Source: Spiroplasmataceae bacterium (GTDB lineage: Bacteria; Bacillota_I; Bacilli_A; Mycoplasmatales; JAYUTB01). From it: 64,000 nt of DNA. This document shows, one piece after another, positions 19,132 through 64,000 of the stretch; position 1 is the first letter of the stretch, and every line of letters begins with the position of its first letter. The stretch spans positions 2,316 through 66,315 of the forward strand of contig JAYUTB010000008.1 of NCBI GenBank assembly GCA_043756005.1, in the 5' to 3' direction. The notes beneath the pieces are model-generated. The model was not told where the DNA came from, did not search any database, and saw nothing but the letters and a program-made list of their open reading frames with translations. The translations under genes and the position numbers were made by a program.

Positions 19132-19214
19132 AAATAATTAATTCTTTATTAATTAAATAAAGTTTTAAAAAAAATTGTTAATATAAAAAATTACAAATTG
19201 ATAAAATACATTAT

Positions 19215-19924
19215 ATGTAATGATTATTGCTATTGATTATTCCCGTAATTAGTATTTTAATAACATATATTAAAAATAAAAAACCAACAGCTAATATAAA
19301 AATTGAGACTTTAACTGAGAAAGTAATAGGACAATTACAAAAACAACAAATTGAATGATTGAGAACATATCAAATTAAATGATTACAAGAAAAGCAAGTT
19401 AAAGGATTTAGTAAAGAACAAATGGGATAATTTACGAAAGATCAAGTTGGTGAATTTACCGAAAAACAAATTAAAGGATTAACCTATGAACAAATAATAG
19501 AATTTACTAAAGCTGGTTTTTTATTATTAAAAGAAAAATTTACCGATTTCATTAATAAAACAACATTTACTAATGATGAAGTTAAAAAATGATCACCGTT
19601 TGAAATTACTATTTTATCTGAAGCACAAATTGGATGATTAACCCGAGGCCAAATTCAATTATTAACCCCAGCACAAATTAAGATATTAACTAACAACCAA
19701 ATTAAACAAATGCAAACAAAATTTACCGATTTAATTAATAAAACATCATTTACTGATGCTGAAATTAGAAAATGATCACCATTGAAATTACTATGTTAAC
19801 ATCAACGCAAATTAAAGGATTAACTAACAACCAAATGAGATGATTTACTGAAGAATAAAGTAAAGCATTAACACTACCACAAATTAAGGCATTTACTAAA
19901 ATTACTTGCATGTATGATTTATAG
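19215..19924 (+). pseudogene. decayed paralogue of the 18058-19131 repeat protein
   Basis: Same repeat types (QIKWL, SPFEITILSEAQIGWLT). The start reads ATG-TAA. There are in-frame TAA codons at 19428-19430 and 19856-19858 and a 1-nt deletion near 19781 (CCATTGAAATT versus CCGTTTGAAATT). Confidence 0.7.
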
Positions 19925-21710: not shown

Positions 21711-23249
21711 TTATAAAAGTGCCTCAAACAATAGCAATAACTTTACCATAACTTTATGTGGTAATTTTAAAGTAAAATGCTTTGCTTGCACAATATAAGC
21801 TAATGAAAAATTTTGCATAAAAATATTTGCTAGCGTTTGATTAACCATTAAACCAAATGTCATCATCGACGTTTGATGATCATGAAAAAAACTTCGATAA
21901 TCCATGTTGGAAGTGGTTACTAACGAAAAATCATCATCAAATAAAATAGTTTTAGCATGATTAAAGACATGACTTGATTCATATATTTTAACACCAGCTA
22001 ATAATAAATCATCATAATAAGTGCGTGACAAGTCTAATAAAAGTATTTTATCAGTTACGTTAGGCATTAAAATTCGAACATCTACACCTGATATAGCAGC
22101 ATTTTTTAAAGCAATAACAATATCATTTGGTACAATTAAATAAGGGGTAGAAATTCAAATTCTTTGTTGCGTAGTATTAATAAATTTTAATAATAAATCT
22201 TTATAAATAATTTCAGTAATGTGGGGGCCGGTACCGATCACTTGATTAAAATTAATTGTTGTTAAATCTAAATTAGCTGATAATAGATTATTTTTTAATA
22301 ATATTGGTAAAGGTAAATGTTGTTTAGTTAATTCATATCAATCTTTTAAAAATATTAAGGCTAATGAGGTGACGGCACCACCTGTAATGCGTACTTGCAT
22401 ATCTTGTCAACAACCATATTTAGCCGATAAATTAATATAATTATCACCAATATTATACCCACCAGTATATCCAATAACGCCATCAATAATCACATCTTTA
22501 CGATGACACCGATAATTAGTTTTGTAACTAAAAAATGGTCAAGTAACATAATTGTAAAAACAAATTTCAATACCAATATTTTTCATGTTGCGTAAATTTT
22601 TATTAAACAAACCAAATCATGAACCAAAATGATCAAGGATTAAATAAATTTTAACGCCTTCACGATATTTTCTAATTAATAACGCTTCAAATGCTTTAAA
22701 ATAATAACCGTCATGAATAATAAAATAATTTAAATAAATAAATTTTTGAGCATTTGCAATGTCTTCAAACAATGCAAAAAACTTATCAATCCCATTATCA
22801 ATTAATTTAAATGTTAAATTTTGATAAAAAGGAAATTTTGTATAATTAGTCACAAAATTAATTAATAAGCTTTGCCTAGTTGATAAATCATGATTGTTAA
22901 GTAATCATTGCGTATCAGTTCATTGTTCATGATCAAATCACAATTTTTCTGCTAATAACACTTGGTCATATGTTTTACGACCTTGATATTTTTTATTAAA
23001 AATAATAAATCAAAACAGGCCAAGCATTGAAAAAACATTAATGATTAAAAATCAAGTTATTTTAAAACATGAATCACGTTTTAAATAAAAAATATATCAG
23101 GTACAACCAAAAATTAAGCAATAATTAACTAAAAAATAAATTCATAGATAACGAAGGGGAATAAAATAAAAAATACAAAAATAAAATCCACACGTTAATG
23201 CTAAAAATAAAAAAATGGTAAAAAATACAAAAAATAATTTTTGTTTAAT
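21711..23249 (-). CDS. cls: cardiolipin synthase (phospholipase D family)
   Basis: Two HKD motifs (HRKDVIIDG... and HAKTILFDDDFSLVTTSNMDYRS) and N-terminal TM helices. The pieces are joined by TGA. No in-frame ATG precedes the TM helices; the likely start is ATT (comp. 23247-23249), 8 nt after GAGGAAG. Confidence 0.85.
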
Positions 23250-23297
23250 AGTTTAATCTTCCTCTTGATAAGCTTTTTAAAAAAATATCAATTAATA

Positions 23298-23390
23298 TGG
23301 TGGAGTAAGGGGGATTTGAACCCACGCGTCATTTGCACAACCTACCTCATTAGCAGCGAGGCCTCTTCAACCGAACTTGAGTATTACTCC
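23298..23390 (-). tRNA. tRNA-Ser (anticodon GCU)
   Basis: The reverse strand GGAGTAATACTCAAG...CCTCG-CTGCTAA-TGAGG...GGGTTCAAATCCCCCTTACTCCACCA gives a cloverleaf with a long variable arm, anticodon loop CU-GCU-AA and an encoded CCA. Confidence 0.92.
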
Positions 23391-23665
23391 AATCATTACT
23401 AACGCACTAAAAAATTATAAAACAATCTTAGTTTGTTAAAATAATTATATATACATTATAAAAATAATAACAAACGACATGCACATAGAACACAATATTC
23501 AATTGTAATGTTTTAAAAACGAGTAATTCAAATTAAAAACATAAAAGAAAATTATTAAGATTTGTCTCTTTAACAAATGTTTCACTAAAGTGGGTATATT
23601 CACATGTTAGTGAATTCAAACGATATTGTTCAATTGTTTTTTATTTATCAAAAAATCATAAAAAT

Positions 23666-25661: not shown

Positions 25662-25780
25662 TACTAGCAATTGATAGATAAGTTGAGTTTATTATGGTTC
25701 AGCCGTTCCTTGATCAATATTTGATGTTGTTATGATAAAAATATCTTCTTTTACATAAGTTGTTTTTACTTTTTATATAT

Positions 25781-26353
25781 AAAAAGGAAATTTTGTATAA
25801 TTAGTCACAAAATTAATTAATAAGCGTTACCTAGTTGATAAATCAGGATTGTTAAGTAATCATTGCGTATCAGTTCATTGTTCATGATCAAATCACAATT
25901 TTTCTGCTAATAACACTTGATCATATGTTTGACGGCCTTTATAGTTTTTATTAAAAATAATAAATCAAGTTATTTTAAAACATGAATCATGTTTTAAATA
26001 AAAAATATATCAGGTACAACCAAAAATTAAACAATAATTAACTAAAAAATAAATTCATAGATAACGAAGGGGAATAAAATAAAAAAATGGTAAAAAATAC
26101 AAAAAATAATTTTTGTTTAATAGTTTAATCTTCCTCTTGATAAGTTTTTTTAAAAAAATATCAACTAATATTGTTGAATAAGGGGATTTGAGCCCATCCG
26201 TCATTTGCACAACCTACCTCATTAGCAGCGAGGCCTCTTCAATCGAACTTAAGTATTACTCAAATCATTACTAACGTACTAAAAAATTATAAATAATCTT
26301 AGTTTGTTAAAATAATTATATATACATTATAAAAATAATAACAAATGACATTC
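25781..26353. repeat. degenerate second copy of 22826-23483 (cls 5' end + tRNA-Ser + flank)
   Basis: The two regions align by eye along their whole length, with scattered substitutions and two deletions of about 40 bp. The copies are direct repeats bracketing 23484-25780. Confidence 0.9.
26171..26262 (-). pseudogene. tRNA-Ser(GCU) relic inside the duplicated segment
   Basis: The anticodon arm is identical to the 23298-23390 copy. The 3' CCA is changed to ACA, the acceptor stem is altered, and the T-loop reads GCTCAAAT instead of GTTCAAAT. Confidence 0.65.
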
Positions 26354-26516
26354 AATAAAGACAACAACAATAACACCAGATAAAGCTAATTTTTTTAAAA
26401 AATTAATTACTAATAATTCTTTGTTATGCATAAAATGAATAACAATTTAATTAATCTTTGAAATTATAAATAATTAATAAAACTCAAATCGCTTTTATAA
26501 CAATTTGTTTGTATAT

Positions 26517-27423
26517 TTTATTTTTGACGTTTTTTAATAATAAAAACTAATGCTGTAATTAAAGCAATAATACCTAGTGAAACAGGTAATCCAATTGTTA
26601 AAAGTTGGTTATTTGTATCAGTTTTTGACGTTTCTTGAGCTTTTGGTATTGGTTGAGTGTCTGAAGTTTTTGGTTTTTCTTGAACTTTTGGTATTACTTT
26701 AGTTTCTGAAATTTTTGGTATTGGTTGAGTTTCTGAAGTTTTTGGTGTTGCTGGAGTGTCTGAAGTTTTTGGTATTGGTTGAGTTTCTTGAGCTTTTGGT
26801 ATTGGTTGAGTGTCTGAAGTTTTTGGGGTTGTGGGTTTGTTTATTGTTACATTTTTAACAATTGTATTTTGAAATTTTAATTCAATTTGATCATTTGGTA
26901 ATTCGTTTATTGAATCAATATCATTTGCAATTTCATAACTGATTGAATGGTCTATTTTTGAAAATAAAATTTTTTGATCTTTAATATATGTTATTCAATC
27001 ACCTTCAGTTAAAGAAAAAACTTTTGGAAGATTTTTAATCTTATCATCTGCTTTTCCGGTTGTTAAATTTATAAAATAATTAGAAGTGACTTTGGAACCA
27101 AAACTATCTATAAATAAATAATCATTTTTATCAATCGTCAAAAAGAACATTTTGGTTTTGTAGTCTTTTACATCATCAGGAATATAATAAAAATCATCTT
27201 TATTTAAAATAATTGCATAATATAGATTACCTCATCCCCCTCATTTTCTTTTCTCTATTTTATATGTTTTGTCATTATATTCAATTTCTTCTATAATTCT
27301 TTTATTGTCACTAAATGTTTCAAAATCAGTGAATGATTTTTGCTTAATATCTGCTGAAAATAAAGTAATAACTAAAACTGGTACAACAATAATTGGTAAT
27401 ATATTTTTCAATAATTTTTTCAT
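26517..27423 (-). CDS. surface protein with Pro/Thr/Lys-rich repeats; C-terminal membrane anchor out of frame
   Basis: ATG at 27423, signal peptide MKKLLKNILPIIVVPVLVITLFSA. The frame checked codon by codon ends at TAA 26533-26535. The anchor SLGIIALITALVFIIKKRQK* (to 26517) lies in the adjacent frame after the A4/T4 run at 26579-26582. Confidence 0.7.
26590..26830 (-). repeat. imperfect 27-30-nt coding repeats (PIPK[TA][SQ][DE]TQ)
   Basis: GGTATTGGTTGAGT[GT]TCTGAAGTTTTTGG-type units are repeated about 7 times. Confidence 0.8.
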
Positions 27424-27493
<70 letters not shown>

Positions 27494-33101: not shown

Positions 33102-35597
33102 TTAAAACAGATCTTTTTCATATTGATCAACTGTAATTTTTACTTTATTCATGATATTGTCTGAAGCAATTAATAAACACTCACCACGGTGTAATTGATT
33201 AATTTGTGAAATCACCAGTTGGTTTTTAATTGATTTTTTTAAAAGAGTATCAAAATTATTAACATCACCATCATTTAAATTAAAAACCAACATGGTTTGC
33301 GCGTTGTTTAAAATACTTTCGGTTTTAAAACTATGGCTAATATTGACGAAATCTTTAATGTTTTGACTAATAATAATTGTGCCACCTTGATATTTTCTAA
33401 TGCGTTTTGTTAAATTAAAAATAAAATTAAGGGGTTGATAGTGATAATTATCGGCAAATTGATTGATTAAAACATGAGCTTCATCAATCACAATGTATAT
33501 ATAATGAGATTGTTGATTGAGTTGATTAGCTAAGCGATTTTTTAAAACTTCTTTTTCAACATAATAAAAAATTAAAAACAACAATGCTTTACTAAATGAA
33601 TTGTTATAACTAGTTTGTAAAGAACTAATATCAAATAATGTAATACTTTTTTGTAAATTTAAATTAGTATGACAATTAAAATAACTGGTTTTGGTAAGTA
33701 AGGGTTTGAATAATTCAGCTAATTCAAGATTAATTTTGGTTGCTTCACAAACTAAGCAATTATATAAATCTTGCAAAACTGGAAAATCAGCGCTGGTTAA
33801 ATAAGCAAGCTCACTAAAATTATCAATTTCTTTATCTTTATACATTTGATATAAAAAAGTCGTTAATACATCAAGTTTGGTTTTATTTAAAAAAGGAAAT
33901 AAAATATTAAATCAGATTTGTAAAAAAGCAATATGATTGTCCAACTTTAAATGATTGTCAAAATATATTTCAAAAGGATTAATATAAATATTTTTATTTT
34001 GAAAATCAATAATATCACCTTTTAATGAAGTGACAATGTTGCGATATTCTTGTTCTGGATCAATAATGATGATTTTGTTTTGATTTAAAACAGCTTGTTT
34101 AATAATTTTTTTAGCCGCAATTGTTTTTCCTGAACCACTTTTACCAAGAATAACGATATTATGATTAATCCGTTGTTGATTTAAAAGATCAGGATTAAAG
34201 ATAATATGACTTTGATTTTGTTGATTAATACCTAATATTAAACCTTGTTTATCTTGATATTTTTCATATGCAAAAGGTCAAAACGCAAATCAAGTAGTTG
34301 ATAATATTTCTTGATGATGATAATTATAAAATAATGGGCGAGGTTGATTTCATTGCAGGCATTGTTTTAAAGCAGTGGATTGTTCAAAAAATAATTCGTT
34401 AATCATGAAGTTTTGTAGTTGTAATTGATTAGTAATTTGAGTAAATGTTTGTTTTAATTGTTTTTTGTTATCGGCTTTGATAACAAAAAACAAATTAGTT
34501 GCATAAATTTCTTGATTAGTGGTAGCAACTTCATTAATAATTTTTTCAAAATTTGTTTGCAAAGAATGATGTTGATTAATCAATTTGTCGGTAGTGTCAG
34601 TTGCTAAATTATTGATGGCTTTGGTAACTTGTTTTTGAAAATTAAGTTTATTAATGGTGTGTCATGACATGTAATAGTTTAAATTAGCTAATGATTCATA
34701 TTTTGATAATCATTGTGGCGAAATATGAACTGGGTAATCTTCAATAGTAAAAAATTTATAATAAGTAGTATTAATTTTTAAGCAATTAAATTTACTAGTA
34801 ATTTTAACGTTCAAATCGGTAACGTTATAAAAATTTAATAATATTTTGATAGTTTCAGGAGCGGCCAATATTTTTGGAAACAACGGCAAATCATGATTAT
34901 TTAACAAAGCTTTATGTTCTTCAAAAGCAATTTTTAAATTTTTTTGATCAGGACTAGTTAAAATAATACTTATTAAAGGTTCAGTTAAAGTGGTTGTTAA
35001 GTTTTGGTATTTTGCTAATTCCAACATTAACAAATGTTTATAATCTTGATTGGTAACTATTAATTGTTGAATGTAATCAATTTGATCTTGTCAATTTAAT
35101 GGTTGGGTTAATTTAACAATATTAATGTTAATGTTATGTTTTTCGATTAATTTGAATGAATTAGTGATGATTTGAATTAATTGGTTTTTTTGCTGATCGT
35201 TAAAATTATGGAGATTATAATGATTGATAGTTAAAAACATTACGTAGTTGTGATTGATTTTAATAGTTTCATGGTTATTAAGTGGTTCTTGAAAAATTGA
35301 TCAGATTTTATTAAAAGTTAGGGTTTTTATTTTTTTAATTAAAAATAAAAACATGAGAATTAATAATTTATAACCTTTGATGTTGAAGGTGGGAATATTA
35401 ATTACCAACATGAAACATAAACTAAATCAAAAACACATGATCATGATTTTGATTCAAAATAACACATGAAATTTAAAAATTAAAAAAGCTAGTAAAATAA
35501 AGATAAAAATTAAACAACCATCGGGCAATGTAAAATTTTTAAAAATCTTTAATTTAATTTTGTTAATTTTTTTACATATTAAATATTCATGATTCAT
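33102..35597 (-). CDS. VirB4/TraE-like type IV secretion ATPase with N-terminal TM (VirB3-like) segment
   Basis: Four track ORFs in one frame (831 aa). Walker A ILGKSGSGKT, IIIDPEQEY and Walker B YIVIDEAHVL are typical of the VirB4/TrsE/TraE family. Two to three N-terminal TM helices. Confidence 0.85.
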
Positions 35598-35875
35598 ATA
35601 ACAACCACATATTATATATCTCTTAAAATGCAAACTTTTCCTTAAATATTTTTTTTATTTAAAAAAAATATTTATATAACGCAATGAAAATAATCTATGT
35701 TGGGAGATAATTATAGGTAAACAAAAACTAATTAATGTTTATTTTGATAAAAAACAATGCAAGATGTGTAATAAAAATTATTTATTGTTGGCCTTTTTAA
35801 TATGTTGATAAATAGATTGTTTAACGATGGAATGGTAATTATTGGTGATGTTTTAATCAAAATCAACATAAAAAC

Positions 35876-35935
35876 TTGACTTTATATATATATATATATA
35901 AAATAAAAATAACTTATGTAAAGGAAGTTATTTTT
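35876..35935 (+). promoter_or_regulatory. promoter/leader cassette with (TA)9 and SD-overlapping hairpin
   Basis: TTGACT 35876-35881, (TA)9 35883-35900 (17-nt spacer to TAAAAT), AAATAAAAA, hairpin AATAACTT/AAGTTATT 35908-35932 overlapping AAGGAAG, ATG 35936. Confidence 0.7.
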
Positions 35936-36178
35936 ATGAAAAAATTATTGAAATTTACAAACCTAAATAAAGTAGTTTTATTTAGTTTGGTGACAATTCC
36001 GGTAGCTGCTATTTTAATGACGGCAAATGCTTGTCAAGGACCAACAGGACCAGCAGGATCTAAAGGTGAAACAGGAGCAGTAGGACCTAAAGGTGAAACA
36101 GGAGCAGTAGGATCTAAAGGTGAAACAGGAGCAGTAGGACCTAAAGGTGAAACAGGAGCAGTAGGACCTAAAGCGTAA
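35936..36178 (+). CDS. small collagen-like (Gly-X-Y)n putative lipoprotein
   Basis: [33 protein letters not shown] (signal peptide ending in Cys) is followed by 15 uninterrupted G-X-Y triplets ([18 protein letters not shown]...). SD AAGGAAG lies upstream and a strong terminator follows. Confidence 0.75.
36065..36172 (+). repeat. 27-nt tandem repeat x4 (GETGAVG[PS]K)
   Basis: GGTGAAACAGGAGCAGTAGGA[CT]CTAAA starts at 36065, 36092, 36119 and 36146. Confidence 0.95.
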
Positions 36179-36914: not shown

Positions 36915-38333
36915 TTATTGATGATGTTTTAATCAAAAATCATCATCAAAACTTGCTTCGTAGTCTTTAAAAACACCAGTTTCTTGATTGAAATATAAAT
37001 CAACATTACCGACGGTGCCGTTACGATTTTTTGCTAAAATTAATTCAGTAAAGTTCGGATCGAAATTTTCTTGTTTAGTTTGATCATCTTGATAGTTGTC
37101 GTCGGCTTGGGTATCTTTATGATAATAACCGGGTCGATATAAAAACATAATTAAATCAGCATCTTGTTCAATAGCACCACTATCTCGTAAATCAGACATA
37201 ATTGGTTTTTTATTTTCACGACGCTCTACATATCGCGATAATTGTGATAAACAAATAATCGGAATAGCTAAACTACGTGATAATTGTTTTAATTTACGTG
37301 ACATAAAACTAATTTCACGATTACGATCCATATAATCAGTTTTATCAATACTTAAGAGTTGTAAATAATCAATTACAACTAATGAAATATCATGTTTGGT
37401 GGCTAATTGTTTTAAAAAAATATTAATTTTGCTTAACGTAATCGTTGGATCATCAACAATAATAATTTTGGTTTGTTTTAAATTTTCTGAGGTAATAGTA
37501 ATTTGATTTCATTGTCCGGTGGTTAATTTTTTACCATATTTAACACTTGATATATTAATTTTTGACGTAATTTGGAGAATTTTTTCTAAGATTTGATCAT
37601 AAGAAGTTTCTAAAGAAAAGAACACCACGACATTATCTAAATCTAGTTGCACCGCATTAATGACAAAATTTAATGATAAAGTAGTTTTACCCATACTTGG
37701 GCGAGCAGCTAAAATGATTAAGTTGCCTTTTTGAAAACCAGCCGTTAATCGATCTAATTTAGCAATGCCACTACCTAATCCGATAAATTCATAACTGGAG
37801 GCTTCTCACAATTTTAATTGTTCTTGTAACGTTTCGATTTTATCACTAATAAAATCATAAGATTCAATTTTAGTATCTTCAATGAGTTTTTGAAAATAAT
37901 CATGAACATTAGTTAATACTTCACTAATTGGCATAGTTGAATTGACTTGCGTTTCAATGAATTTGATACCTAGTTTTAATTTTCGTTTAATCGACCGATC
38001 CATTAAAATGTCTACATATTCTTTTAATAACACATCAGAATCAATAAAATTTTCAATTAAATAATTTAAATAATGAAAAACATCAGCACTTTCTTTTCAA
38101 AAAGTTTGTTTGATTAAATAATCTTGTAAAATAGTAACATCAACTGTAGTTGAGTCTTCATATAAGGTTTGTAACGCTTTAAAAATTGATTGGTGCTTTT
38201 CACTGTAAAAATCATGAACCGTAAGTTTAGTAAATACTTGATGACAATTATAAGGATTATAAATTAAAGAACCTAAGACACACGCTTCGGCTTCTTCAAA
38301 ATATAAATTTGCAGGAGGATTATTAATTATCAA
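36915..38333 (-). CDS. dnaB: replicative DNA helicase DnaB
   Basis: Four track ORFs in one frame. Walker A ARPSMGKTT and the RecA-like C-terminal domain are present. The TGA at 36933 is Trp and the true TAA is at 36915. The likely start is TTG at 38333, right after the rplI stop. Confidence 0.92.
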
Positions 38334-46424: not shown

Positions 46425-47382
46425 TTAGTTGTTGTTTTGAGCTGCTTTTAATTTTGCATCGGCTTCATCTAATGTTTGTTGAGCTGTTTTTAATTTTGCA
46501 TCAGCATCGTCTAATTTATTTTTACTTTCTAATCAACTTGATGAGTTGTTGAAATTTAAATTTGCAAAATCAATTGTTTGGTTAAATTTACTTAAAATAG
46601 GTTTGATATATGATGGAGAATATATATTATTCAATACTTGTAAAACATAAATTGATGATCAATTTTGATTTTTGATTGCATTAATTACATTAAATTCATT
46701 TTTTACAAACATAATATTAAAATTATTATCACTCGATTTTGGAATGAATAATGCAAGTAATTCTTTTAGTGCTGTTGTTTTTGTTTTTTCATCGGTTGCG
46801 TTAATTCATTTATCTAATAATGTTTTTTTAGCAGTATCTGTTGCAGGCATTAATGCTGTAAGTAATGTTTTTAGTGCGTTTATTTTTTCTGTTTCATCGG
46901 TTGCGTTAATTCATTTATCTAATAATGCTTTGTGATCTTTTGCTAATGCTTTAAGTAATTGTAGTAAAGAATTTTCGGTTGTTGCGATATTTGATGCTGG
47001 ATTTATAAATAATTGAAAATATGTTCTGCTTTTATCTCCACTTTTTGATAAAATTTTATTTAAATTTGTTGTTAAATTAGATTGTTCGGTTTGTAAATAA
47101 AATTTATAATTAAATATTGATTTAAGTAAATCTAAATCTAAAATTTTAGAATTTAAGAAATTTGAATTTATAATATTAAAATTTTGTTGAGCATGTTGTT
47201 GGTTTGTTTTTGCATGTTGTTGGTTTGTTTTTGCATGTTGTTGGTTTTTTATTGCATCATCTAATTCTTTATCAACACCTCAACAATTTTTTGCTGATGT
47301 TGAAATAACAACTGCCGGTATTGTTATCAAACTAAATAAAACAACTTTATTTAAGTTTGTAAATTTCAATAATTTTTTCATA
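46425..47382 (-). pseudogene. putative surface lipoprotein, frame broken inside the signal peptide at a T5 run
   Basis: ATG 47382 gives [16 protein letters not shown]. After removing one T at comp. 47338-47342 the frame reads LFSLITIPAVVISTSAKNC... and stays open to TAA 46425. It contains NQQHAKT x3 and LLDKWINATDE x2 repeats. Confidence 0.7.
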
Positions 47383-47434
47383 AAAACAACTTCCTTTTCA
47401 TAAGTTGTTTTTATTTTATATATATAAAGTCAAG
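47383..47434 (-). promoter_or_regulatory. promoter/leader cassette with (TA)5 and SD-overlapping hairpin
   Basis: On the reverse strand: TTGACT (47429-47434), T, (TA)5 (47418-47427), AAATAAAAA, hairpin AACAACTT/AAGTTGTT (47386-47410) overlapping AAGGAAG, ATG 47382. Confidence 0.65.
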
Positions 47435-47820
47435 TTTTAAAATATGTAACTGGATTTAGGTTTAATTTCTCTTGTAATAATATTTTACTGATGATAATGC
47501 TAGTAAATAGGTGATTAATTTAAATGAATTAAAATGACTTTTAATGAATGTTAAATATTAACTTACGTTAATTGTTTTCATTAATTTAATAATAATATAT
47601 TAACTGGTAGTTTTGTTTAAGTTTTTATATTTTTTAATATATATTTTTCTAAAACAATAATTAACTAAACGATCTGAAAATAAAACTTGATATGTTTGTC
47701 ATATTTACCATTATTTATTACTAAATAAAATAATACTTTTTATGAATTTGATTCAATACAAACAATTGAATGGATAAAATATAATAATTGTTAACATTTA
47801 TATAAATGTTAAATTTTATA

Positions 47821-51652: not shown

Positions 51653-51777
51653 TAAAAATTATAGGTGTAACGTTTTAAAAAAGAGTAATTTAAAGTAAAC
51701 ACAATCATTATATTTTCCTTTTATAAAGGTAGTTTTATTAGATTTTTTGTATCTTTTAAATAATAAAAAATCTAATA

Positions 51778-51854
51778 CTAAAGCGTATGCTAAACGAGTA
51801 ATCGAAATTTGTCTCTTTAACAAATTTCGATTACTCGTTTAGCATACGCTTTAG
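51778..51854. repeat. 77-nt palindromic element (35-bp perfect stem, 7-nt loop)
   Basis: CTAAAGCGTATGCTAAACGAGTAATCGAAATTTGT-CTCTTTA-ACAAATTTCGATTACTCGTTTAGCATACGCTTTAG. Partial copies lie at 23517-23578 and 25485-25529. It sits between convergent genes, so it may also act as a terminator. Confidence 0.9.
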
Positions 51855-52226
51855 GGGTGGTTTTTTACCAAATCATTTTGCTAATAAAGTTGGTGCTTTA
51901 GTGGTAACAATGTTAACGGCTCGTTCTAACAACACTTTATTTTCTTCTTCTAAGTCTAATTTACGTTGTGTAGCTTTTTTAATAAAACTTAAGTAAGTAG
52001 CTTGACAAAAACTGTTAAAGGTTAACGAAAGAAAAATTGAAAATAAGGCTTGATAAGCAAAGATACGATAATTAATTACTGGAGATGATGGATTTGTTTT
52101 CATGATTTGGTTAATTAATACGATTCAGATTATTAAAAAAATGATTGATAACAAAAATGAACATCCAAATACCACCAACACATATTTAACGTTATGTTTA
52201 TGAAAATGATTTAAAATATTATGCAT
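51831..52226 (-). CDS. small hypothetical membrane protein (131 aa)
   Basis: ATG at 52226. Two hydrophobic helices. Track ORF 51873-52103 extends through TGA; its last 8 codons lie in the right arm of the palindrome. Confidence 0.45.
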
Positions 52227-56316: not shown

Positions 56317-58053
56317 TTAATAAAAACCAACTTCTAATATAACAATTGGGGTTTTTTTAGCAACCCGAAACATATAATCTAAAATTGGTTTAGTTAACAT
56401 TTCTTTGATAAAAGTTGCGTCAGCTGATGGAGGATCAATTTGAAATCTAGGTAATAATACGGTTTCAGTTAATTTATCAATGATTTTTTTTATTTCAGCA
56501 TTTACTTTATGTTTAATGACAAAACCATTATCAACTACACCTTGAATTTGAATATCAACATTGGTAACCACCTCAAAAGTTTTTTTAGCTAACATAAAAT
56601 TAATACTTATAAAACCATCACTTAATAAGTTTTGACGATCTTGAATGATGCGATCTTGTTCAAAATATCATTGATACGGTTGATGCATTAATAATCAATC
56701 AGGTTGATTAATGAATGTAGGTTTAGTAACTGGCAGTTGGTCATGGCTTAATGGTAAGTGTAAGCTGGTTTGATTATCCATTAATAATAAGTGGTTTGGT
56801 AAAATAGTGGTGTTGGGCATGATACTTTTCATTAATAAAAAATCACCATAAAAACCAGTAATCGGAATAACATATTGGGGATTAATTAAATTTAAAATAA
56901 TTTTAATGTCTTGTAAAGAAGGTAAAAAACTAAATGGTTTGTCAGTATCACAAGTGGTTAATGAGAAGTCAAGCTTCATCGCCTCTTCAAGAAATAGTTC
57001 ATAACACCATTCTTGACCAAATAATAATTTACTGGCCAAGACAACTTCATCGGTTGGTAAAAATGTAAATGCTGATGAATTTGTACAACAATCATGTAAA
57101 AAATTAAAAATGGTTTCCGGTTGATCAGATAAAATAATAATTTCCGGTTGCGCGGTCTGATTAATGATGTAATTGGGTGGTTTGTTATGTCAGTTTGCAA
57201 ACATGAGATGTTTAAAATCAAATGATTGCATACTTTTAAAAAAATCAATCATAGCTCAAAGCTGATGATTATAAATTCAAACTTTGATTGATTTTTTTAA
57301 TTTATTATAATAATTGAAAATTTCAAATAAATACCACAATTGATTATGAAACACAATAAAAATATAACGCATATCAATATTAAAATTGGATTGTAATCAT
57401 GGCGTAATTGAATAATGATGCAGAGAAGTTAATGAATTATTAACTCCTCCCGCGGGTAAAAATAAATGAGTAATTGATTGTTGTGATAATTTAAATAAAG
57501 TATGATAATTACCCGTAAATAATGGATAATCAACCACCACATCTAACATAAATTCACTTAACAAAACAATTTTAAAAGCATCTTTTTCAATCAAAAACCC
57601 CATCGTTTGTGGAGTCATAGAAAATACTGCTAAACTAGTGATTTTAATCTGCCCCGATGATTGCTGAATAATGATTTCCGAACCGTGAGTAAGTTCATAA
57701 AACGTTGGCGTAAGATTAATATGTAATGTCGCTAATTGCTGTTTAATAATAAAGGTTACAAATGGACTGGCATAAATTGGTATGTTATGAGTCATTTGTT
57801 GTAAAAAGACAAATAACCCACCGATTTTGGTATGAGCACTACTACTCACAAAAATGCCTTTAATACGGTGTTGATTAGCTAATAAATAAGATTGATCGGC
57901 AATGATTGCATCAATGCCGATCAATGTTTCATAATAATCACTTAATTTAAAGCCGATGTCGAAAACAATAATGTCTTCGTCGATTTGAAAGAAATAAAGA
58001 TGTTTATCTCGTTCATCGATCCCCCCGAGGGCAAAAAATTGAATATTAGCCAC
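56317..58053 (-). CDS. RNase J-like metallo-beta-lactamase-fold protein with degenerate catalytic motif
   Basis: GTG start at 58053. IQFFALGGIDE...IKGIFVSSSAHTKIGG aligns with RNase J ...FALGG...GLFITHGHEDHIGG. Three track ORFs in one frame. It lies immediately downstream of pnp. Confidence 0.75.
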
Positions 58054-58060
58054 GCGACAA

Positions 58061-60205
58061 TTATGTTATTTTTTCAAGAAATTTAAAAGAAATGCGTTCT
58101 CTTTCGTCAATATGACCAACTTCAACCAATACTTCATCATCAACATCTAACATGCTATCAATTTTAGTATTTTCGGCAGCATTTTTTTTATCAAAAAAGA
58201 TTAAACCACCGACACCATTTGGTAAGTGCACAATAATGCCAAAGTTATTTTTTTTCACAACTTTACCTTGCGCTTGCATACCAACTTTCATAATGACACT
58301 GCATTCTTCAATTTTGGCAATGGCCATATCAATGTATGTTTCGTCTTGATGATACACATATACTTTTCCGTCATCATTAACATTAATTCTAACATTATTA
58401 CAATCTTTAATAATTCGATTAATATTTTTTCCGCCCGAACCAATAATATTTTTGATTCGCGTTGTTGGTACAGTAATGCATTTTACTTTATCAACGTCCT
58501 TAGATACGCCTGGTCTAGGCTTTGAAATGATTTTATTCATATTCTCGAGTATTTCCGTTCTCCCTTGTTTCGCTAACAATAGCGATGCTTTAATTATATC
58601 ATATTCTATACCATCGATTTTTAAATCTAATTGAATCGCACAAATCCCGACTTCTGTACCAGCGATTTTAAAGTCCATATCTCCAAAAAAATCTTCTTTG
58701 CCTTCAATATCAAGTAATAATTGATAATCATCACCAACTTTAATTAAACCAACGGAAATACCAGCAATATGTTTAGTAATTGGTGCGCCAGCTAACATTA
58801 ACGCTAATGAAGACGCACAAATAGCGGCTTGTGAAGTAGAACCATCGGATGATAATACTTCAGAAACAATGCGAATTGTATATGGAAATAATTCATTATC
58901 AGGTAATACCGCTGATAATGCCTTTTCCACTAATAAACCATGCCCAGTTTCACGTCGATTAATCGCACGATTTTTAGTAATTTCGCCCACTGAAAAGCCA
59001 GCAAAATTATAATGATGAATAAATGTTTTTTCAGTGGTATCACTTAAATCATCAATCGTTTGTCTGTCAGTTAATGAAACAATCGTGGCCGCTGATAAAA
59101 CTTTGGTATCACCTCGAGCAAATAAAGCGCTCCCATGGACTGATGGTAATACATCACCAACACTAGTAAGGGGTCGTAATTGATCGAGTTGACGACCATT
59201 AAGTCGAGTTTTAGTCGTCATGATTTTACTTCGTAATGCGGTTTGAAAAGATTGATCAAATAGTTGTTTCACAACATCAATGACCACTTTTGTTTCTTGC
59301 AGATTGGTACATACTATTTGGGATAGGATGTTTTTGGTAATAGTGGCTTTTAATGTATTTAAGGTTGCTTTATGAAGGTCAGTTTGGTTAAAGATAACAT
59401 CATGGATAGTTTGTTGGACATCAGCGGTAAACAACTTGGTAACTTGATTAATAATGGATTGGTGATATTGATAATCATTAATTTGCGCATCAATATTAAT
59501 CATTGTTAATTGTTGAATAATATCCATTTGATGATTAATGTATTTTTTAATAGCTTGTTGAGCTAATGTAATTGCATCAAGATACACAGCTTCGCTGATT
59601 TCTTTCGAACCAGCTTCAATCATGACTACTTTATCAACGCTACCCACCACAAATAATTCTAAAGTAGATGATAACATTTGCGTTTGATCAGGATTAACAA
59701 TTAATTGACCATCCACTTGACCAATTTTAACAGCTCCTAATAACGCTTTAAATGGTAAATTAGTCGTTGCAATGACTAAAAATGACGCCATAAAAGCTAA
59801 TAATCTAATATCATATTGTTTATCAACTGATAAGACACTATTAATGATTTGCACTTCTTTACGACACCGCTCATCAAACATTGGTCGCATTGCGCGATCA
59901 ATTAATCGTGCACTTAATACGGCATGATCACCTGGTTTACCTTCTCGTTTAAAAAAACCACCCGGCACGCGTCCGACCGCATAAAATTTTTCATCAAAAT
60001 TCACACTTAATGGAAAATAATCTTTGGTTTCAGTTGGCGTAGCACAAACTAACGTAGTTAAGATAACGCTATTACCGCAGGTAATTAAAATACTATTATC
60101 AGCATTAACAGCCAGACTATTTTGTTCAATGATAAATGTTAGTCCATTAAAGACTATTTCAATTTTTTTAGCTTGTTTGTTTAATAAAGATTGGTGATCG
60201 GTCAT
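58061..60205 (-). CDS. pnp: polyribonucleotide nucleotidyltransferase (PNPase)
   Basis: An uninterrupted 714-aa ORF with two RNase PH domains, a KH domain (IGSGGKNI) and a C-terminal S1 domain. Confidence 0.95.
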   Translation of the reverse strand: MTDHQSLLNKQAKKIEIVFNGLTFIIEQNSLAVNADNSILITCGNSVILTTLVCATPTETKDYFPLSVNFDEKFYAVGRVPGGFFKREGKPGDHAVLSARLIDRAMRPMFDERCRKEVQIINSVLSVDKQYDIRLLAFMASFLVIATTNLPFKALLGAVKIGQVDGQLIVNPDQTQMLSSTLELFVVGSVDKVVMIEAGSKEISEAVYLDAITLAQQAIKKYINHQMDIIQQLTMINIDAQINDYQYHQSIINQVTKLFTADVQQTIHDVIFNQTDLHKATLNTLKATITKNILSQIVCTNLQETKVVIDVVKQLFDQSFQTALRSKIMTTKTRLNGRQLDQLRPLTSVGDVLPSVHGSALFARGDTKVLSAATIVSLTDRQTIDDLSDTTEKTFIHHYNFAGFSVGEITKNRAINRRETGHGLLVEKALSAVLPDNELFPYTIRIVSEVLSSDGSTSQAAICASSLALMLAGAPITKHIAGISVGLIKVGDDYQLLLDIEGKEDFFGDMDFKIAGTEVGICAIQLDLKIDGIEYDIIKASLLLAKQGRTEILENMNKIISKPRPGVSKDVDKVKCITVPTTRIKNIIGSGGKNINRIIKDCNNVRINVNDDGKVYVYHQDETYIDMAIAKIEECSVIMKVGMQAQGKVVKKNNFGIIVHLPNGVGGLIFFDKKNAAENTKIDSMLDVDDEVLVEVGHIDERERISFKFLEKIT

Positions 60206-60433
60206 CTAATGTTTAAAACCTTGTTAGTAATACAAAAATAAATTATGAAGTAAATATCAAAAATTTAAATCGCTAATTAAGAGTTTATCATATAAATTAG
60301 TAATTAGTTAAAATAATTAATCTGATAAATATTTTAATGATTGATATTTATTTAAAAATAATAATTTTCAAATGTTGATTTAATCAAGCTAATATTGATA
60401 TATTAAATCAAAAAAAGTTATAATTTTTTTGTA

Positions 60434-61774
60434 ATGAACAACAAAATTATCAAACCAGAATATATATTTGATGCTTTTTATAAAAATATTTATATTGAAG
60501 ATCAAGTTATCAAAGAATTATTAAATACTAAAGAAATGTTGAGATTACATCATATTAAACAATTAGGGTTAATTTATCCTTTTTTCCCTTCAGCAGTTCA
60601 TACTCGTTTTTCTCATTCGTTAGGTGTTTATTATATTGTTGATCGCATATTTAAAGAGGCATATTTTCAAGATCCATTCAATAAAAAAGATAAATTAATA
60701 ATCAAAATTGCTTCATTGTTACATGATGTTGGCCATGGACCTTTTTCTCATTCATTTGAATCCCTTATTAAAAATTGTCAAGATACACAATTTAACCATC
60801 ATGAAGGTTATAGTGTTAAAATTATTCAAGATGTCAATAGTGATATTAATAAAATTCTTACTAAATATAAAATCAACATTAATAAAGTCGTTGAATATAT
60901 TAAACCTTCAAATGAATCGTATCAATTAAATTTGATTTCATCAATTATTGATGCTGATCGGTTAGATTATTTAAATCGTGATAATTTGTCTTTAGGATTA
61001 GATATTGGTAAAATCGGCATTGATTATATAATTCAATCAATGTATTTTAAGCGTGATAATAAAAAATTAATGCAAATATATTTTACATCTAAAAGTAAGT
61101 CCAGCATTGAAAGTTTTTTGTTTAATCGCCGCCAAATGTATCAAGCTTTATATTTTTACCCAAGCAGTATGTTAATGGATGTTATATTACAAAACATCTT
61201 TCAAAGATTAACTGAATTATATAATCAAGATCAAACAAAATTTTTAACGAGCACCAATTTAAATCAATATTTTTTACCATTTATTAAACCAATTTTAGAA
61301 AAAAAACCAATCCCAATGAATGTTTATCAATATTTAGAAGACAACTTTATGGACACTTTGTTAAATTCATTACTAGCAAGTACTGATCAAATTATTAGTT
61401 TTTTAAGTTTTGTTTGAAAAAACATTGTTGTTTTTAATAAAAATAACCTTATTACTAATAAACAAAATTCTAAAAACGATTTAGATATAGCAAATATTGA
61501 AAGAATACTTTTAAAGCAAAACCATCATCACATAAACAAAACACTTCCTTGAGATGAATATTTATTAGGTGTTAAGTCTATTGCAGATAAGCAAGTTAAC
61601 GATGTTTCACAAAAAATCATGTTAATTAATGATGATTATGATGTTGATCAAGCGGTAAATTTTTATGAGATTAATAATGATATTGATTGAATAAAAATCC
61701 AAACTATTCCAACGAAAACAATCTTTTTTAACTTATCTAATTTTAAGTTGACCAGTGATATCGAACCTGATTAA
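60434..61774 (+). CDS. HD-domain phosphohydrolase (dNTP triphosphohydrolase-like)
   Basis: RFSHSLGV...LLHDVGHGPFSH...DADRLDY are HD-superfamily motifs. The frame continues past TGA 61415 to TAA 61772-61774. Confidence 0.8.
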
Positions 61775-62532
61775 AGATGTTTAACCACTAAATTGAATCG
61801 TTGTTGATGGTTTTGTAAAACCAGCTGGTTTGTTTTAATTGTTTCAATGCCATCGACAAAAAAATAAGTATCTTTAACAAAATGATGTTCATCAATTACA
61901 ATCGTTAATATTTGTGATTGATCTAAAATAAAATTTTTATAAGTAATGGGGGTTAATCCATCACACGGAGCAATAATTTTCACATTTAATAAAGGGGTCT
62001 TGGCTAGAATGGTTGCCCCATCAATTGCTTTGATATATCCTGATGAACCAAGGTTAGTTGAAATAACAATGCCTGAAGCTTGATAATTTGCTAATCATTG
62101 ATCATTAATAAATAAATTAAAGGTAATGGTATTTTTTAAGTTAATAATTCTTAATTCGTTAACACTCAATTGTTGCTTAATGATTTTATTATTTTGCATA
62201 AAATTAATTTGCAACAATTGACATTGATCAATGACAATTTTATGATTAATAATTTGCTCGATAATTTGATCAATGTCATCAATTAACCACCTACAAAAAA
62301 AACCAACACTTTTGTCATTAGTTTTAATAGTAATAAATTTACTATTATTTAATAAATGATTGTATTTGTTAATGGCTCATAAAAAATTACCATCACCACC
62401 TAATACAAAAATTCAATTTGGATTTACTTGATCATTAATAAAGTTATAAGTGTGTAATTTATCAATTAATATTGTTTGAATATCAAGGGATTGTGATTTA
62501 TGTTCATTAATAGCAATGGCGTATGTAAACAT
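61771..62532 (-). CDS. nadK: NAD kinase
   Basis: FVLGGDGNFL, NxGxxGY-like STNLGSSGYI and a C-terminal beta domain. Track ORF 61771-61983 plus upstream segments share one frame. ATG at 62532. Confidence 0.85.
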
Positions 62533-62600
62533 TTTTTTATCATAATCCTCAAATTTTTTTAATAAATTTCATTTTTTTTTAGCTATTGTTTTAATTTGTT
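62531..62600. repeat. about 70-bp direct repeat, copy A (copy of the trpS 3' end, now the nadK 5' leader)
   Basis: ATTTTTTTATCATAATCCTCAAATTTTTTTAATAAATTTCATTTTTTTTTAGCTATTGTTTTAATTTGTT matches 62975-63044 with a few mismatches. Confidence 0.9.
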
Positions 62601-62818
62601 ACAGCAATAATTAATATTTTTTTGATTCAGAAGTTAATTGTATTATATTTTTTAATATTTTTTTTCTAAACTAATGTTAAAAAAAATAAATTAAAAAAGT
62701 ATATAAATATCTGAAATTTTATATAAATGATAATTACTGATAATTAAATTGTGATTTAAATTTATTATCTATTATATAAACTATAATAATTATGAATACA
62801 TAAATATATTTACAGTTC

Positions 62819-62974
62819 TGTTAAAATAGGTAGTTGTTATTAACAAGCATAAAAATTAAATCTGGATTCACGTGATTATTAATAAAGTTCGGAGGTTATC
62901 AATGGGTGACTAAAGCAGTTTTAAGAATTGGCTTTTGTTTTTATGCTTGTTAATAACAACTACCTATTTTAACA
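62819..62974. repeat. 156-nt element: 37-bp perfect inverted repeat around an 82-nt loop
   Basis: The left arm 62819-62855 (TGTTAAAATAGGTAGTTGTTATTAACAAGCATAAAAA) is the exact reverse complement of the right arm 62938-62974. Confidence 0.95.
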
Positions 62975-63044
62975 TATTTTTTATCATAATCCTCAAATTT
63001 TTTTAATAAATTTCATTTTTTGTTTAGCGATGGTTTTAATTTGT
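62975..63044. repeat. about 70-bp direct repeat, copy B (authentic trpS 3' end)
   Basis: See copy A. It overlaps the last roughly 21 codons and the stop of trpS. Confidence 0.9.
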
Positions 63045-63991
63045 TTTTCATTAGTAATGATTGTTTTTAATACTTCATTATTAGCTTGATAAAGTTTGGT
63101 TCGATCTTGAATATTTTTGAATGCATCGTTAATAATATCAATTAATGTATTTTTTAAATCGTGATAATTTTTATGTTGAAATATATCTTCGGCATCTTTG
63201 ATTGTTGTTTCTGAAAATAAACAAAAAATTTTAAGCAAATTGCTGACCCCTGGTTTATTAATCGGATCAAAATAAATTTTATTTTCTGTGTCAGTAATGG
63301 CTTTCATAATTTTTTGTTTAATGATGTCAGGTTTGTCAGCTAAGTTAAGTTTGGAAAATTCATTATCATCTGATTTTGACATTTTTTTTAATGGATTTTG
63401 TAAACTCATAATTTTATCACTTAATTGGTTATCAAATGCTTGCAAGCGGGTTGGTAAAGTAAAGACGGTGGTATTAAATTTATGATTGATTTTTTCAGCT
63501 AAGTTTCTTATAAATTCAATGTGTTGGGTTTGATCAATGCCGGTTAAGACAACATCACTATCAAACAATAAAATATCAGCACTCATTAAGATTGGATAAA
63601 TTAATATACCAGTTGGAATAGCAATACTTTGATTGGCATGTTTGATTTTTTTATCTTTATATTGGGTCATATTATTAAGTTGTCCCACCGTGGTGTGACA
63701 ACTTAATAAATAATGCAATTCACTGATTTCGGGGATATGTGATTGGATAAAAATCTTTACTTTTGTACTGTCAATGCCACAAGCTAAATAATAATTAATA
63801 ATGGTTTGGGTTTGGTGTTGTAATATTGATTGATGCACATTATCAGTTGTTAAAGCATGTAAATTAGCAACAAATAATATAATTTCATAATCATTTTGTA
63901 ATTTAATAATTGGTTTAATAACACTAAAATAGTGACCAATATGCATTTCTCCAGTACTAGTAATGGCACTAATTAATTTAAGTTTTTTCAT
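62981..63991 (-). CDS. trpS: tryptophan--tRNA ligase
   Basis: Class I HIGH-type motif (GEMHIGHY) and KMSKS (KKMSKSD). The TGA at 62993 is Trp and the frame ends at TAA 62981-62983. Confidence 0.92.
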
Positions 63992-64000
63992 ATATTTTAA

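What the first reader, a model, noticed from the sequence alone, without database searches (positions are those of the whole stretch)
62531..63044. Insertion between trpS and nadK: 70-bp target duplication enclosing a 37-bp perfect inverted repeat
The 3' end of trpS (62975-63044) is duplicated at 62531-62600, immediately upstream of the nadK ATG. There it supplies the nadK SD (GAGGA lies within the trpS C-terminal codons). So trpS-nadK were once contiguous or overlapping.

The intervening roughly 375 bp is AT-rich. It ends in a 156-nt element (62819-62974) whose 37-nt arms are exact reverse complements around an 82-nt loop. The loop contains GGAGG plus a 3-codon mini-ORF (ATGGGTGACTAA). The right arm abuts the trpS stop region.

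The element could be a MITE-like sequence, a structured RNA or super-terminator, or the footprint of an integration event. It is the third insert in this window flanked by a long duplication of neighbouring sequence (also 22826/25781 and 35839/36915). That points to a common, possibly homology-driven, insertion mechanism.
Basis: partly seen in the sequence, partly recalled or inferred. Interest (0 to 1): 0.65.

Follow-up and report, generated by a model that had tools for sequence, protein, structure and literature searches.

The report
Decayed junction duplication with inverted-copy hairpin
Between two housekeeping genes of an uncultured mycoplasma-like bacterium lies a rearrangement scar: the gene junction was copied once, the spare halves decayed, and a later copying error turned part of the dead gene fragment into a perfect hairpin. 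It is a tidy example of known mutation processes, not a mobile element or a new system.

Summary
The reported sequence features are real. There is a 45-nt exact repeat (68-70 nt at about 94%) and a perfect 37-nt inverted repeat around an 82-nt loop.

The interval is not a foreign insertion flanked by a target duplication. The duplicated unit is about 300 bp. It covers the last ~70 nt of trpS plus the first ~228 nt of nadK, so 62749-62975 is a dead nadK 5' fragment with at least five stop codons.

The right hairpin arm is the decayed copy of nadK codons 1-13 (25/37 identical; none of ~8,600 control positions reached this). The left arm is its exact reverse complement and overwrites 37 nt of the pseudogene. 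Intact nadK has no such hairpin. This pattern fits a replication template switch, and the arm has no other copy anywhere I could search.

A Logan contig ends exactly at the k=31 branch point the repeat predicts, so the duplication is present in raw reads.

In eight relatives nadK lies upstream of trpS, usually divergent. The tail-to-head junction here is therefore a lineage-specific breakpoint.

A function for the hairpin is unproven. It has no sense-strand U-tract and is atypical for this genome. The GAGGA Shine-Dalgarno idea is weak. A TATGAT -10 box built from the last trpS codons is a better candidate reason for the conserved repeat. Overall interest is low to moderate.

The parts
62981..63991 (-). 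trpS (tryptophan-tRNA ligase), 336 codons with TGA=Trp. It ends ...KKIWGLW-TAA.
   Evidence: Table-4 translation. Pfam tRNA-synt_1b E=1e-61. The C-terminus aligns with homologs and G334 is invariant.
62977..63045 (-). R2: the trpS-proximal repeat copy. It holds the last ~21 trpS codons, the stop codon and an A-run.
   Evidence: 45 nt exact plus 21/23 identical to R1. It encodes the conserved C-terminal helix.
62749..62975 (-). psi-nadK: a decayed copy of nadK codons 1 to about 74, with at least 5 in-frame stops.
   Evidence: Colinear local alignment to 62312-62532, score 84 against 45 +/- 6 for shuffles. Per-segment identities are 25/37, 34/39 and 20/35 with empirical p from <1e-4 to 0.002.
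62938..62974 (.). Right inverted-repeat arm. It is psi-nadK nt 2-38 and is the source copy.
   Evidence: 25/37 identical to nadK 62495-62531 in the colinear register. None of ~8,600 control positions reached this.
62819..62855 (.). Left inverted-repeat arm. It is an exact reverse complement of the right arm and overwrites 37 nt of psi-nadK.
   Evidence: Perfect 37-nt match. Its similarity to the nadK stretch it replaces is borderline (17/37, p~0.05), with the only contiguous run in the terminal A5. The offset of 444 is kept on both sides.
62856..62937 (.). Hairpin loop. 62851-62889 is 87% identical to nadK 62407-62445. 62890-62937 is 40% G+C and of unclear origin.
62601..62748 (.). Spacer of 11-12% G+C with no detectable homology. 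It holds one promoter-like site on the - strand (62670 to 62642, TTTAGA-17-TATAAT).
62533..62600 (-). R1: the nadK-proximal repeat copy (psi-trpS 3' end). It contains the -10-like TATGAT at 62539-62544, ending 6 nt before the nadK ATG.
   Evidence: Exact 45-mer. -10-like hexamers 3-20 nt before the ATG occur at 15/49 genes against 10-13% of random positions.
61771..62532 (-). nadK (NAD kinase), 253 codons, intact, with a GGDG motif.
   Evidence: Table-4 translation. Pfam NAD_kinase_C at 21.8 bits, just under the cutoff. tblastn to NadK in 8 relatives, E from 1e-20 to 1e-34.

Best explanation
The interval is a multi-step rearrangement scar, not an inserted element.

1. In this lineage trpS came to lie tail-to-head against nadK, with the trpS stop, 5 nt, then the nadK ATG. 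In relatives nadK lies upstream of trpS and is usually divergent.
2. A segment of about 300 bp spanning that junction was duplicated in direct orientation. It held the last ~70 nt of trpS and the first ~228 nt of nadK. The start-to-start distance is 444 bp.
3. Each gene kept the copy it needs. trpS kept the codons of its conserved C-terminal helix (R2). nadK kept the same 45-70 nt as its immediate upstream region (R1). The last trpS codons, TTA-TGA-TAA, form a TATGAT -10 box 6 nt before the ATG, which suggests a leaderless or short-leader promoter. This step is inferred. The redundant nadK 5' fragment next to trpS decayed into a pseudogene.
4. Much later, one replication template switch copied psi-nadK nt 2-38 as a reverse complement into the pseudogene, leaving 82 nt between the two copies. 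This created the perfect 37-bp stem. The return junction lies in a shared A5 run.

Any transcript running from trpS toward nadK would fold into a hairpin of -56 kcal/mol starting 6 nt after the trpS stop. I consider this most likely a neutral by-product. At most it acts as a 3'-end stabiliser, a processing site or a roadblock.

Shown: the duplication, the nadK ancestry of the right arm, the absence of the hairpin in intact nadK, the presence of the duplication in raw reads, and the derived gene order.

Inferred: the order and mechanism of the events, the promoter role of the repeat, and neutrality.

The confidence of 0.7 applies to the origin (a junction duplication plus a later inverted copy of nadK sequence). 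Confidence that the hairpin is functionally neutral is lower, about 0.55.
For: - Colinear homology of 62749-62975 to nadK 62312-62532, with per-segment statistics.
- psi-nadK carries at least five stops.
- The right arm is 25/37 identical to nadK codons 1-13. The left arm is an exact reverse complement whose similarity to the nadK stretch it replaces is borderline (17/37, p~0.05), with the only contiguous run in the terminal A5.
- Intact nadK has only background complementarity at these positions (12/37) and folds no better than shuffles (z +0.84).
- Arms are 37/37 identical while psi-nadK is only about 63% identical to nadK. If the arms were as old as the duplication, 37/37 would have probability of about 0.68^37, or 6e-7. 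The inverted repeat is therefore much younger, or it is being homogenised.
- The Logan contig L081 matches 63991 to 62992 exactly and ends at the last unique 31-mer.
- In 8 of 8 relatives nadK is upstream of trpS, and in 7 of 8 it is on the opposite strand.
- The arm and the loop have no hits elsewhere.
- Template switching is documented to create perfect stems tens of bases long in a single event (PMC8794818).
Against: - The 148-nt spacer (62601-62748) shows no homology to trpS or nadK, so a simple tandem duplication is not demonstrated.
- The right part of the loop (62890-62937) is 40% G+C, which runs against AT-biased decay, and it is barely similar to nadK.
- The left arm replaces exactly 37 nt, which a template switch does not require.
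- Microhomology is seen at only one of the two switch junctions.
- No close relative exists (the next TrpS is 44% identical), so the order of events rests on comparing the two copies within this genome.
- The 45-nt exact identity could reflect gene conversion rather than selection.
- The inverted repeat itself has no confirmation independent of this assembly.
Confidence: 0.7

Rival explanations
1. The hairpin has been taken over as a functional RNA element. It would act as a terminator or insulator, a 3'-end stabiliser or an RNase III site that separates trpS expression from nadK. nadK would then be driven by its own promoter in R1 or the spacer. This is compatible with the same origin.
For: - The stem starts 6 nt after the trpS stop and folds at -56 kcal/mol, z -8.6.
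- The arms are perfect although the surrounding pseudogene has decayed.
- Long AT-rich hairpins occur at a few other gene ends, such as 51766-51866 between convergent genes.
- On the + strand the stem is followed by TATTTTTTAT, so it could stop antisense transcription.
Against: - There is no U-tract after the stem on the trpS strand (GAACUGUAAA), and the terminator scan found none.
- The 82-nt loop is far outside terminator norms.
- Most co-directional gene pairs here have no hairpin (median best perfect stem 8 bp).
- Perfect Watson-Crick pairing with no G-U pair looks like recency or DNA-level homogenisation rather than RNA-level selection.
- There is no Rfam match and no homolog on which to test covariation.
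Confidence: 0.2
2. A MITE-like or other mobile or foreign element inserted between trpS and nadK and generated a long target duplication.
For: - A 37-bp terminal-inverted-repeat-like structure.
- Direct repeats on either side of the interval.
- ICE-like genes elsewhere in the window.
Against: - The arms and part of the loop are homologous to the adjacent nadK gene, in colinear order.
- The direct repeats are 45-70 bp and do not abut the left arm, which lies 218 nt from R1.
- There is a single copy in 64 kb and zero hits in metagenome, viral, plasmid and phage collections.
- No ORF of 30 aa or more lies inside the interval.
Confidence: 0.03
3. The interval is the footprint of Campbell-type (single-crossover) integration, followed by decay, of a small circular DNA that carried a trpS-nadK junction fragment. 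Alternatively, unequal crossing-over was followed by replacement of part of the unit. The spacer and the G+C-richer loop patch would be what remains of the non-homologous cargo.
For: - Direct repeats flank DNA of undetectable origin: the spacer at 62601-62748 and the loop patch at 62890-62937.
- Two other loci in the window show gene-end duplications flanking inserted genes.
Against: - The cargo would be only about 150-200 nt and has no coding capacity.
- The loop patch sits inside colinear psi-nadK without changing the 444 offset.
- Nothing matches known plasmids or phages.
Confidence: 0.1
4. The 37-bp inverted repeats flank an invertible 82-bp DNA switch (an inverton) that carries a promoter aimed at nadK.
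For: - Perfect inverted repeats long enough for recombination.
- The loop holds TTGATA-16-AATAAT (10/12 match) pointing toward nadK.
Against: - Promoter-like sites occur at chance frequency here (11 found, 10.8 expected).
- nadK is a housekeeping gene.
- The loop is in the ancestral, nadK-colinear orientation.
- No recombinase gene was seen among the immediate neighbours, though this was not surveyed exhaustively.
- The arms have a simple mutational origin.
Confidence: 0.03
5. The inverted repeat is an assembly or amplification artefact, for example a chimeric fold-back.
For: - The inverted repeat itself has no independent confirmation.
- The source is a fragmented assembly (contig of 66,997 nt).
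Against: - The direct duplication next to it is confirmed by the k=31 contig break in SRR23617201.
- The inverted copy sits in register inside otherwise colinear sequence, unlike typical chimeric joins.
Confidence: 0.05

Closest known systems
Template-switch mutations (TSMs), including quasi-palindrome-type replication template switching (Monttinen and Loytynoja 2022, PMC8794818)
   Same: - A reverse-complement copy of nearby sequence (82 nt between the copies) replaces the resident sequence in one step and gives a perfect stem.
- There is a microhomology (A5) at the return junction.
- The mechanism can also keep arms identical over time.
   Different: - At 37 nt with an 82-nt loop, this event is at the large end of reported cases.
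- There is no pre-existing imperfect palindrome in the parental sequence (12/37 complementary).
- The ancestral state is inferred from the intact paralogous copy in the same genome, not from a phylogeny.
- The second junction shows no microhomology.
Segmental or tandem duplication leaving truncated pseudogene fragments (duplication followed by degeneration)
   Same: - Two colinear direct copies of a gene junction.
- Each gene keeps one intact copy, and the redundant halves decay toward A+T.
   Different: - The copies are separated by 148 nt of untraceable DNA.
- The segment both genes need (TrpS C-terminal codons and the nadK upstream region) stayed 100% identical over 45 nt while neighbouring sequence fell to about 63-68%.
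MITEs and intergenic repeat elements (REP/BIME, Correia, RUP, BOX)
   Same: - A small, non-coding, inverted-repeat-bounded hairpin-forming element.
- It sits in an intergenic region just after a stop codon.
   Different: - Single copy.
- The arms derive from the neighbouring gene.
- There is no short target-site duplication abutting the arms.
Rho-independent (intrinsic) terminators, including bidirectional ones
   Same: - A stable stem-loop right after a stop codon.
- An A-run precedes it, and a T-run follows it on the opposite strand.
   Different: - The stem is AT-rich and 37 bp long, and the loop is 82 nt.
- There is no U-tract on the trpS sense strand.

Membership tests
MITE / transposon-derived repeat | Terminal inverted repeats | tested here: met
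   37-nt perfect arms. However, they are homologous to nadK codons 1-13.
MITE / transposon-derived repeat | Short (2-10 bp) target-site duplication directly abutting both arms | tested here: not met
   The flanking bases differ (C at 62818, T at 62975). The only direct repeats are 45-70 bp, and R1 lies 218 nt from the left arm.
MITE / transposon-derived repeat | Multiple dispersed copies | tested here: inconclusive
   One copy in the 64-kb window and none in metagenome, viral, plasmid or phage collections. The rest of the source genome could not be searched.
MITE / transposon-derived repeat | Sequence unrelated to the flanking host genes | tested here: not met
   The right arm, part of the loop and the left flank are colinear with nadK.
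Template-switch mutation product | The target segment is an exact reverse complement of a nearby source segment | tested here: met
   62819-62855 is the reverse complement of 62938-62974, with 82 nt between them.
Template-switch mutation product | The source is ancestral, and the target replaces ancestral sequence (shown by an outgroup or ancestral state) | tested here: met
   Intact nadK serves as the outgroup. The right arm is 25/37 identical to it. The left arm is 17/37 (p~0.05), with the only contiguous run in the terminal A5, and the offset of 444 is kept on both sides. There is no phylogenetic outgroup.
Template-switch mutation product | Microhomology at the switch points | tested here: inconclusive
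   An A5 run (CATAAAAA|TT against ACAAAAA|TT) lies at the inner junction. None is visible at the outer junction.
Tandem duplication | Two colinear direct copies | tested here: met
   62312-62600 and 62749-63045, offset 443-445.
Tandem duplication | Head-to-tail adjacency, with the whole 444-bp unit homologous | tested here: not met
   62624-62748 is at background identity to trpS 63068-63192 and to nadK 62180-62304, both at nucleotide and purine/pyrimidine level.
Intrinsic terminator | Short G+C-rich stem, 3-8 nt loop and a U-tract immediately 3' on the sense strand | tested here: not met
   The scan found 0. The stem is 22% G+C, the loop is 82 nt, and the tail is GAACUGUAAA. A T-run follows only on the + (antisense) strand.
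Invertible promoter (inverton) | Both orientations present in reads, and a dedicated recombinase | not testable with these tools
With arms longer than k, both orientations give the same k=31 graph.
Integrase att-site duplication | Direct repeats flank an element that carries an integrase or its remnants | tested here: not met
   There is no ORF of 30 aa or more in 62533-62980, and 228 of 376 nt are psi-nadK.
Known structured RNA (Rfam) | A match to a curated covariance model | tested here: not met
   No hit at E<=1 in 61500-64000 and none at gathering score.

The most novel reading that the evidence does not exclude
The hairpin is a newly born functional RNA element. A perfect 37-bp stem was made in one step by a template switch inside a dead nadK fragment, and it is now kept because it insulates trpS from nadK. 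The twin copy of the nadK promoter inside the trpS 3' end could also transcribe it as a discrete structured RNA of about 160 nt. Alongside this, the 45-nt repeat would be a case of duplication resolving an overlap between one gene's last codons and the next gene's promoter.
Probability: 0.15. Interest if true: 0.5.

Novelty: new member of a known kind. Interest (0 to 1): 0.27.

Why it matters
If the reconstruction is right, the locus is a clear bacterial example with an internal control. It shows how a long perfect RNA or DNA hairpin can arise in one step from non-functional DNA, because the source (the nadK 5' end) is still identifiable in an intact copy 444 bp away. It also shows how compact genomes tolerate rearrangement when one gene's end doubles as the next gene's start signals: duplicate the shared piece and let each gene keep one copy. 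It does not reveal a new mobile element, defence system or RNA family. For genome scanning, it is a warning that a "target duplication plus inverted repeats" pattern can be produced without any transposon.

Tried and rejected
- **MITE or foreign element.** Rejected: the arm is unique and derives from nadK.
- **Quasi-palindrome correction of an inverted repeat already present in nadK.** Rejected: complementarity in intact nadK is at background, 12/37, and its fold is unremarkable. A weak G-U proto-stem lies about one nucleotide off register and is not significant.
- **Strict 444-bp tandem unit.** Could not be shown: the spacer has no trpS or nadK signal at nucleotide or purine/pyrimidine level, or by gapped alignment.
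- **GAGGA as the nadK Shine-Dalgarno.** Judged weak.
- **GGAGG plus mini-ORF as a meaningful feature.** This occurs at chance frequency.
- **Canonical terminator.** None found.
- **Rfam families.** None found.
- **Junction in close relatives.** Impossible: the nearest TrpS is 44% identical.
- **My first downstream-hairpin survey.** It used a 140-nt window that truncates the trpS hairpin, so it serves only as a genome-wide baseline.

Full report
**Setting.** The window is 27% G+C and reads TGA as Trp, so it is Mollicutes-like. On the minus strand, trpS (63991 to 62981, 336 codons, Pfam tRNA-synt_1b E=1e-61) is followed by nadK (62532 to 61771, 253 codons, GGDG motif). The lineage is isolated. 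The only identical TrpS sequences are a 1,027-nt Logan contig and one NCBI contig of 66,997 nt, and the next best protein is 44% identical.

**Observation check.**
- 62533-62577 equals 62977-63021 exactly (45 nt).
- Arms 62819-62855 and 62938-62974 are perfect 37-nt reverse complements around an 82-nt loop. They are the only two matches in the window, and none appeared in 100 shuffles.
- The element folds at -56 kcal/mol as RNA (z -8.6) and -36.6 kcal/mol as DNA (z -11).
- With code 4, trpS ends at TAA 62981-62983, 6 nt from the right arm.

**What the 'insert' really is.** The repeat finder reported a second match at the same 444-bp offset, 62851-62889 against nadK 62407-62445 at 87%.

A local alignment then showed that 62749-62975 is colinear with nadK 62312-62532, which is codons 1 to about 74. 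The score was 84 against 45 +/- 6 for shuffles.

Per-segment tests in the fixed colinear register gave:

| Segment | Identity to nadK | Empirical p |
|---|---|---|
| Right arm | 25/37 | none of ~8,600 control positions reached it |
| 62851-62889 | 34/39 | none of the controls reached it |
| Left flank 62784-62818 | 20/35 | 0.002 |

The copy has at least five in-frame stops. So about 228 of the 376 'inserted' bases are a dead nadK 5' fragment. The event was a direct duplication of a junction segment of about 300 bp, not a 70-bp target duplication around foreign DNA.

The remaining 148 nt (62601-62748, 11-12% G+C) match nothing. I tested trpS, nadK, the rest of the window, plasmids and phages. 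A clean 444-bp tandem unit is therefore not demonstrated.

**Origin of the hairpin.**
- The right arm is psi-nadK nt 2-38 (ATGTTAAAATAGG... against nadK ATGTTTACATACG...).
- The left arm is its exact reverse complement. It occupies exactly the 37 nt where nadK codons ~41-53 should be. Its similarity to those codons is borderline (17/37, p~0.05), and the only contiguous run is a terminal A5. The 444 offset is preserved on both sides.
- Intact nadK shows background complementarity at these positions (12/37) and folds no better than shuffles (z +0.84). The hairpin is therefore new in the pseudogene copy.
- This is the signature of a replication template switch, a mechanism documented to create perfect stems tens of bases long in a single event and to keep arms identical (PMC8794818).
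- psi-nadK is only about 63% identical to nadK over the homologous blocks, yet the arms are 37/37 identical. The inverted repeat is therefore much younger than the duplication, or it is being homogenised. If it were as old as the duplication, 37/37 would have a probability of about 6e-7.

**Is it real?** Logan contig L081 (SRR23617201, seen in two samples) matches window 63991 to 62992 exactly. It stops at the last 31-mer that is unique. The next 31-mer occurs twice in the window. Logan assembles at k=31 (my own knowledge), so this is the expected graph branch if both repeat copies are in the reads. The duplication is therefore not an artefact of this assembly. The inverted repeat itself has no independent confirmation.

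**Why this junction?** In all eight fetched relatives with a detectable NadK near trpS, nadK lies upstream of trpS, and in seven it is on the opposite strand. These relatives are Spiroplasma, Erysipelotrichales and Bacilli MAGs. One of them has RNase J, PNPase, nadK(-) and trpS(+). The window has the same order with trpS flipped, plus an HD-domain gene. The tail-to-head trpS-nadK junction is thus a lineage-specific breakpoint. Both junction copies show stop, then 5-6 nt, then ATG, so the tight junction predates the duplication.

**Why 45 nt stay identical.**
- The trpS-side copy encodes the conserved C-terminal helix of TrpS, and G334 is invariant.
- By contrast, -10-like hexamers ending 3-20 nt before the ATG occur at 15 of 49 genes against 10-13% of random positions.
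- nadK has TATGAT (62539-62544) ending 6 nt before its ATG. It is built from the trpS codons TTA-TGA-TAA.
- I infer that the repeat persists because one copy serves TrpS and the other serves nadK initiation. Gene conversion is an alternative I cannot exclude.

**Function of the hairpin.** It begins 6 nt after the trpS stop. On the trpS strand it is followed by GAACUGUAAA, not a U-tract. The terminator scan found nothing and Rfam has no match. Genome-wide, most genes have no notable downstream hairpin (median best perfect stem 8 bp), and the few long stems sit at convergent gene pairs such as 51766-51866. I therefore rate a neutral by-product as most likely. An acquired role as an insulator, stabiliser or processing site is a live but unproven alternative.

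**The 'common mechanism'.** The two other cases are also direct duplications of gene ends.
- 22824-23495 and 25779-26364 include a cardiolipin-synthase 5' end and tRNA-Ser(GCT) in both copies.
- 35839-35878 and 36915-36955 are the dnaB 3' end.

Both enclose real surface-protein genes, and the second lies next to a TraG/VirB4-like gene. They share an outcome with this locus, not demonstrably a mechanism.

**Verdict.** The locus is a new instance of known mutational processes: segmental duplication, pseudogene decay and a template-switch inverted repeat. It sits at a lineage-specific rearrangement breakpoint. Interest is low to moderate.

Noticed in passing
window 22824-23495 and 25779-26364: Direct duplication of about 600-670 bp (83% overall, blocks at 94-98%). 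It contains the 5' end of a PLD/cardiolipin-synthase gene and a tRNA-Ser(GCT) in both copies (23298-23390, 26173-26263). It brackets two signal-peptide/TM surface-protein genes. Rfam scores only the first tRNA copy.
   Followed up: partly
window 35839-35878 and 36915-36955; 33102-35597: The last 40 nt of dnaB are repeated (90%) on the far side of a small surface-protein cassette with collagen-like GXY repeats (36036-36173). The next gene is a TraG/VirB4-like conjugation ATPase, which suggests an ICE-like region.
   Followed up: partly
window 27383-27476, 35871-36039, 47278-47438: A shared upstream-plus-signal-peptide cassette of surface-protein genes. It carries (TA)n tracts, which makes them candidate phase-variable promoters.
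   Followed up: no
window 51766-51866: A hairpin with 47-nt arms (89% complementary, 7-nt loop), an A-run before it and a T-run after it, between convergent genes. It looks like a long-stem bidirectional terminator.
   Followed up: partly
whole window: Shine-Dalgarno-like motifs are rare (8 of 50 genes). TATAAT-like boxes ending 3-20 nt before the ATG are enriched (15 of 49 genes against 10-13% at random). This suggests many leaderless or short-leader mRNAs.
   Followed up: partly
window 56317-63991 compared with L085, L001 and L084: The RNase J - PNPase - nadK - trpS neighbourhood is conserved across distant Mollicutes and Erysipelotrichales. Here trpS is inverted, and an HD-domain gene (60434-61774, +) sits between PNPase and nadK, overlapping the nadK 3' end by 4 nt.
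   Followed up: partly
window 62890-62937: A 48-nt patch of 40% G+C inside the hairpin loop. It runs against the local AT-biased decay, is barely similar to nadK and has no match anywhere searched.
   Followed up: partly
window 13110-14186, 18165-19900, 26621-26836: In-frame tandem repeats in large ORFs (108-nt, ~330/24-nt and 27-nt periods). The last encodes PKTSDTQPI-type repeats in a surface protein.
   Followed up: no
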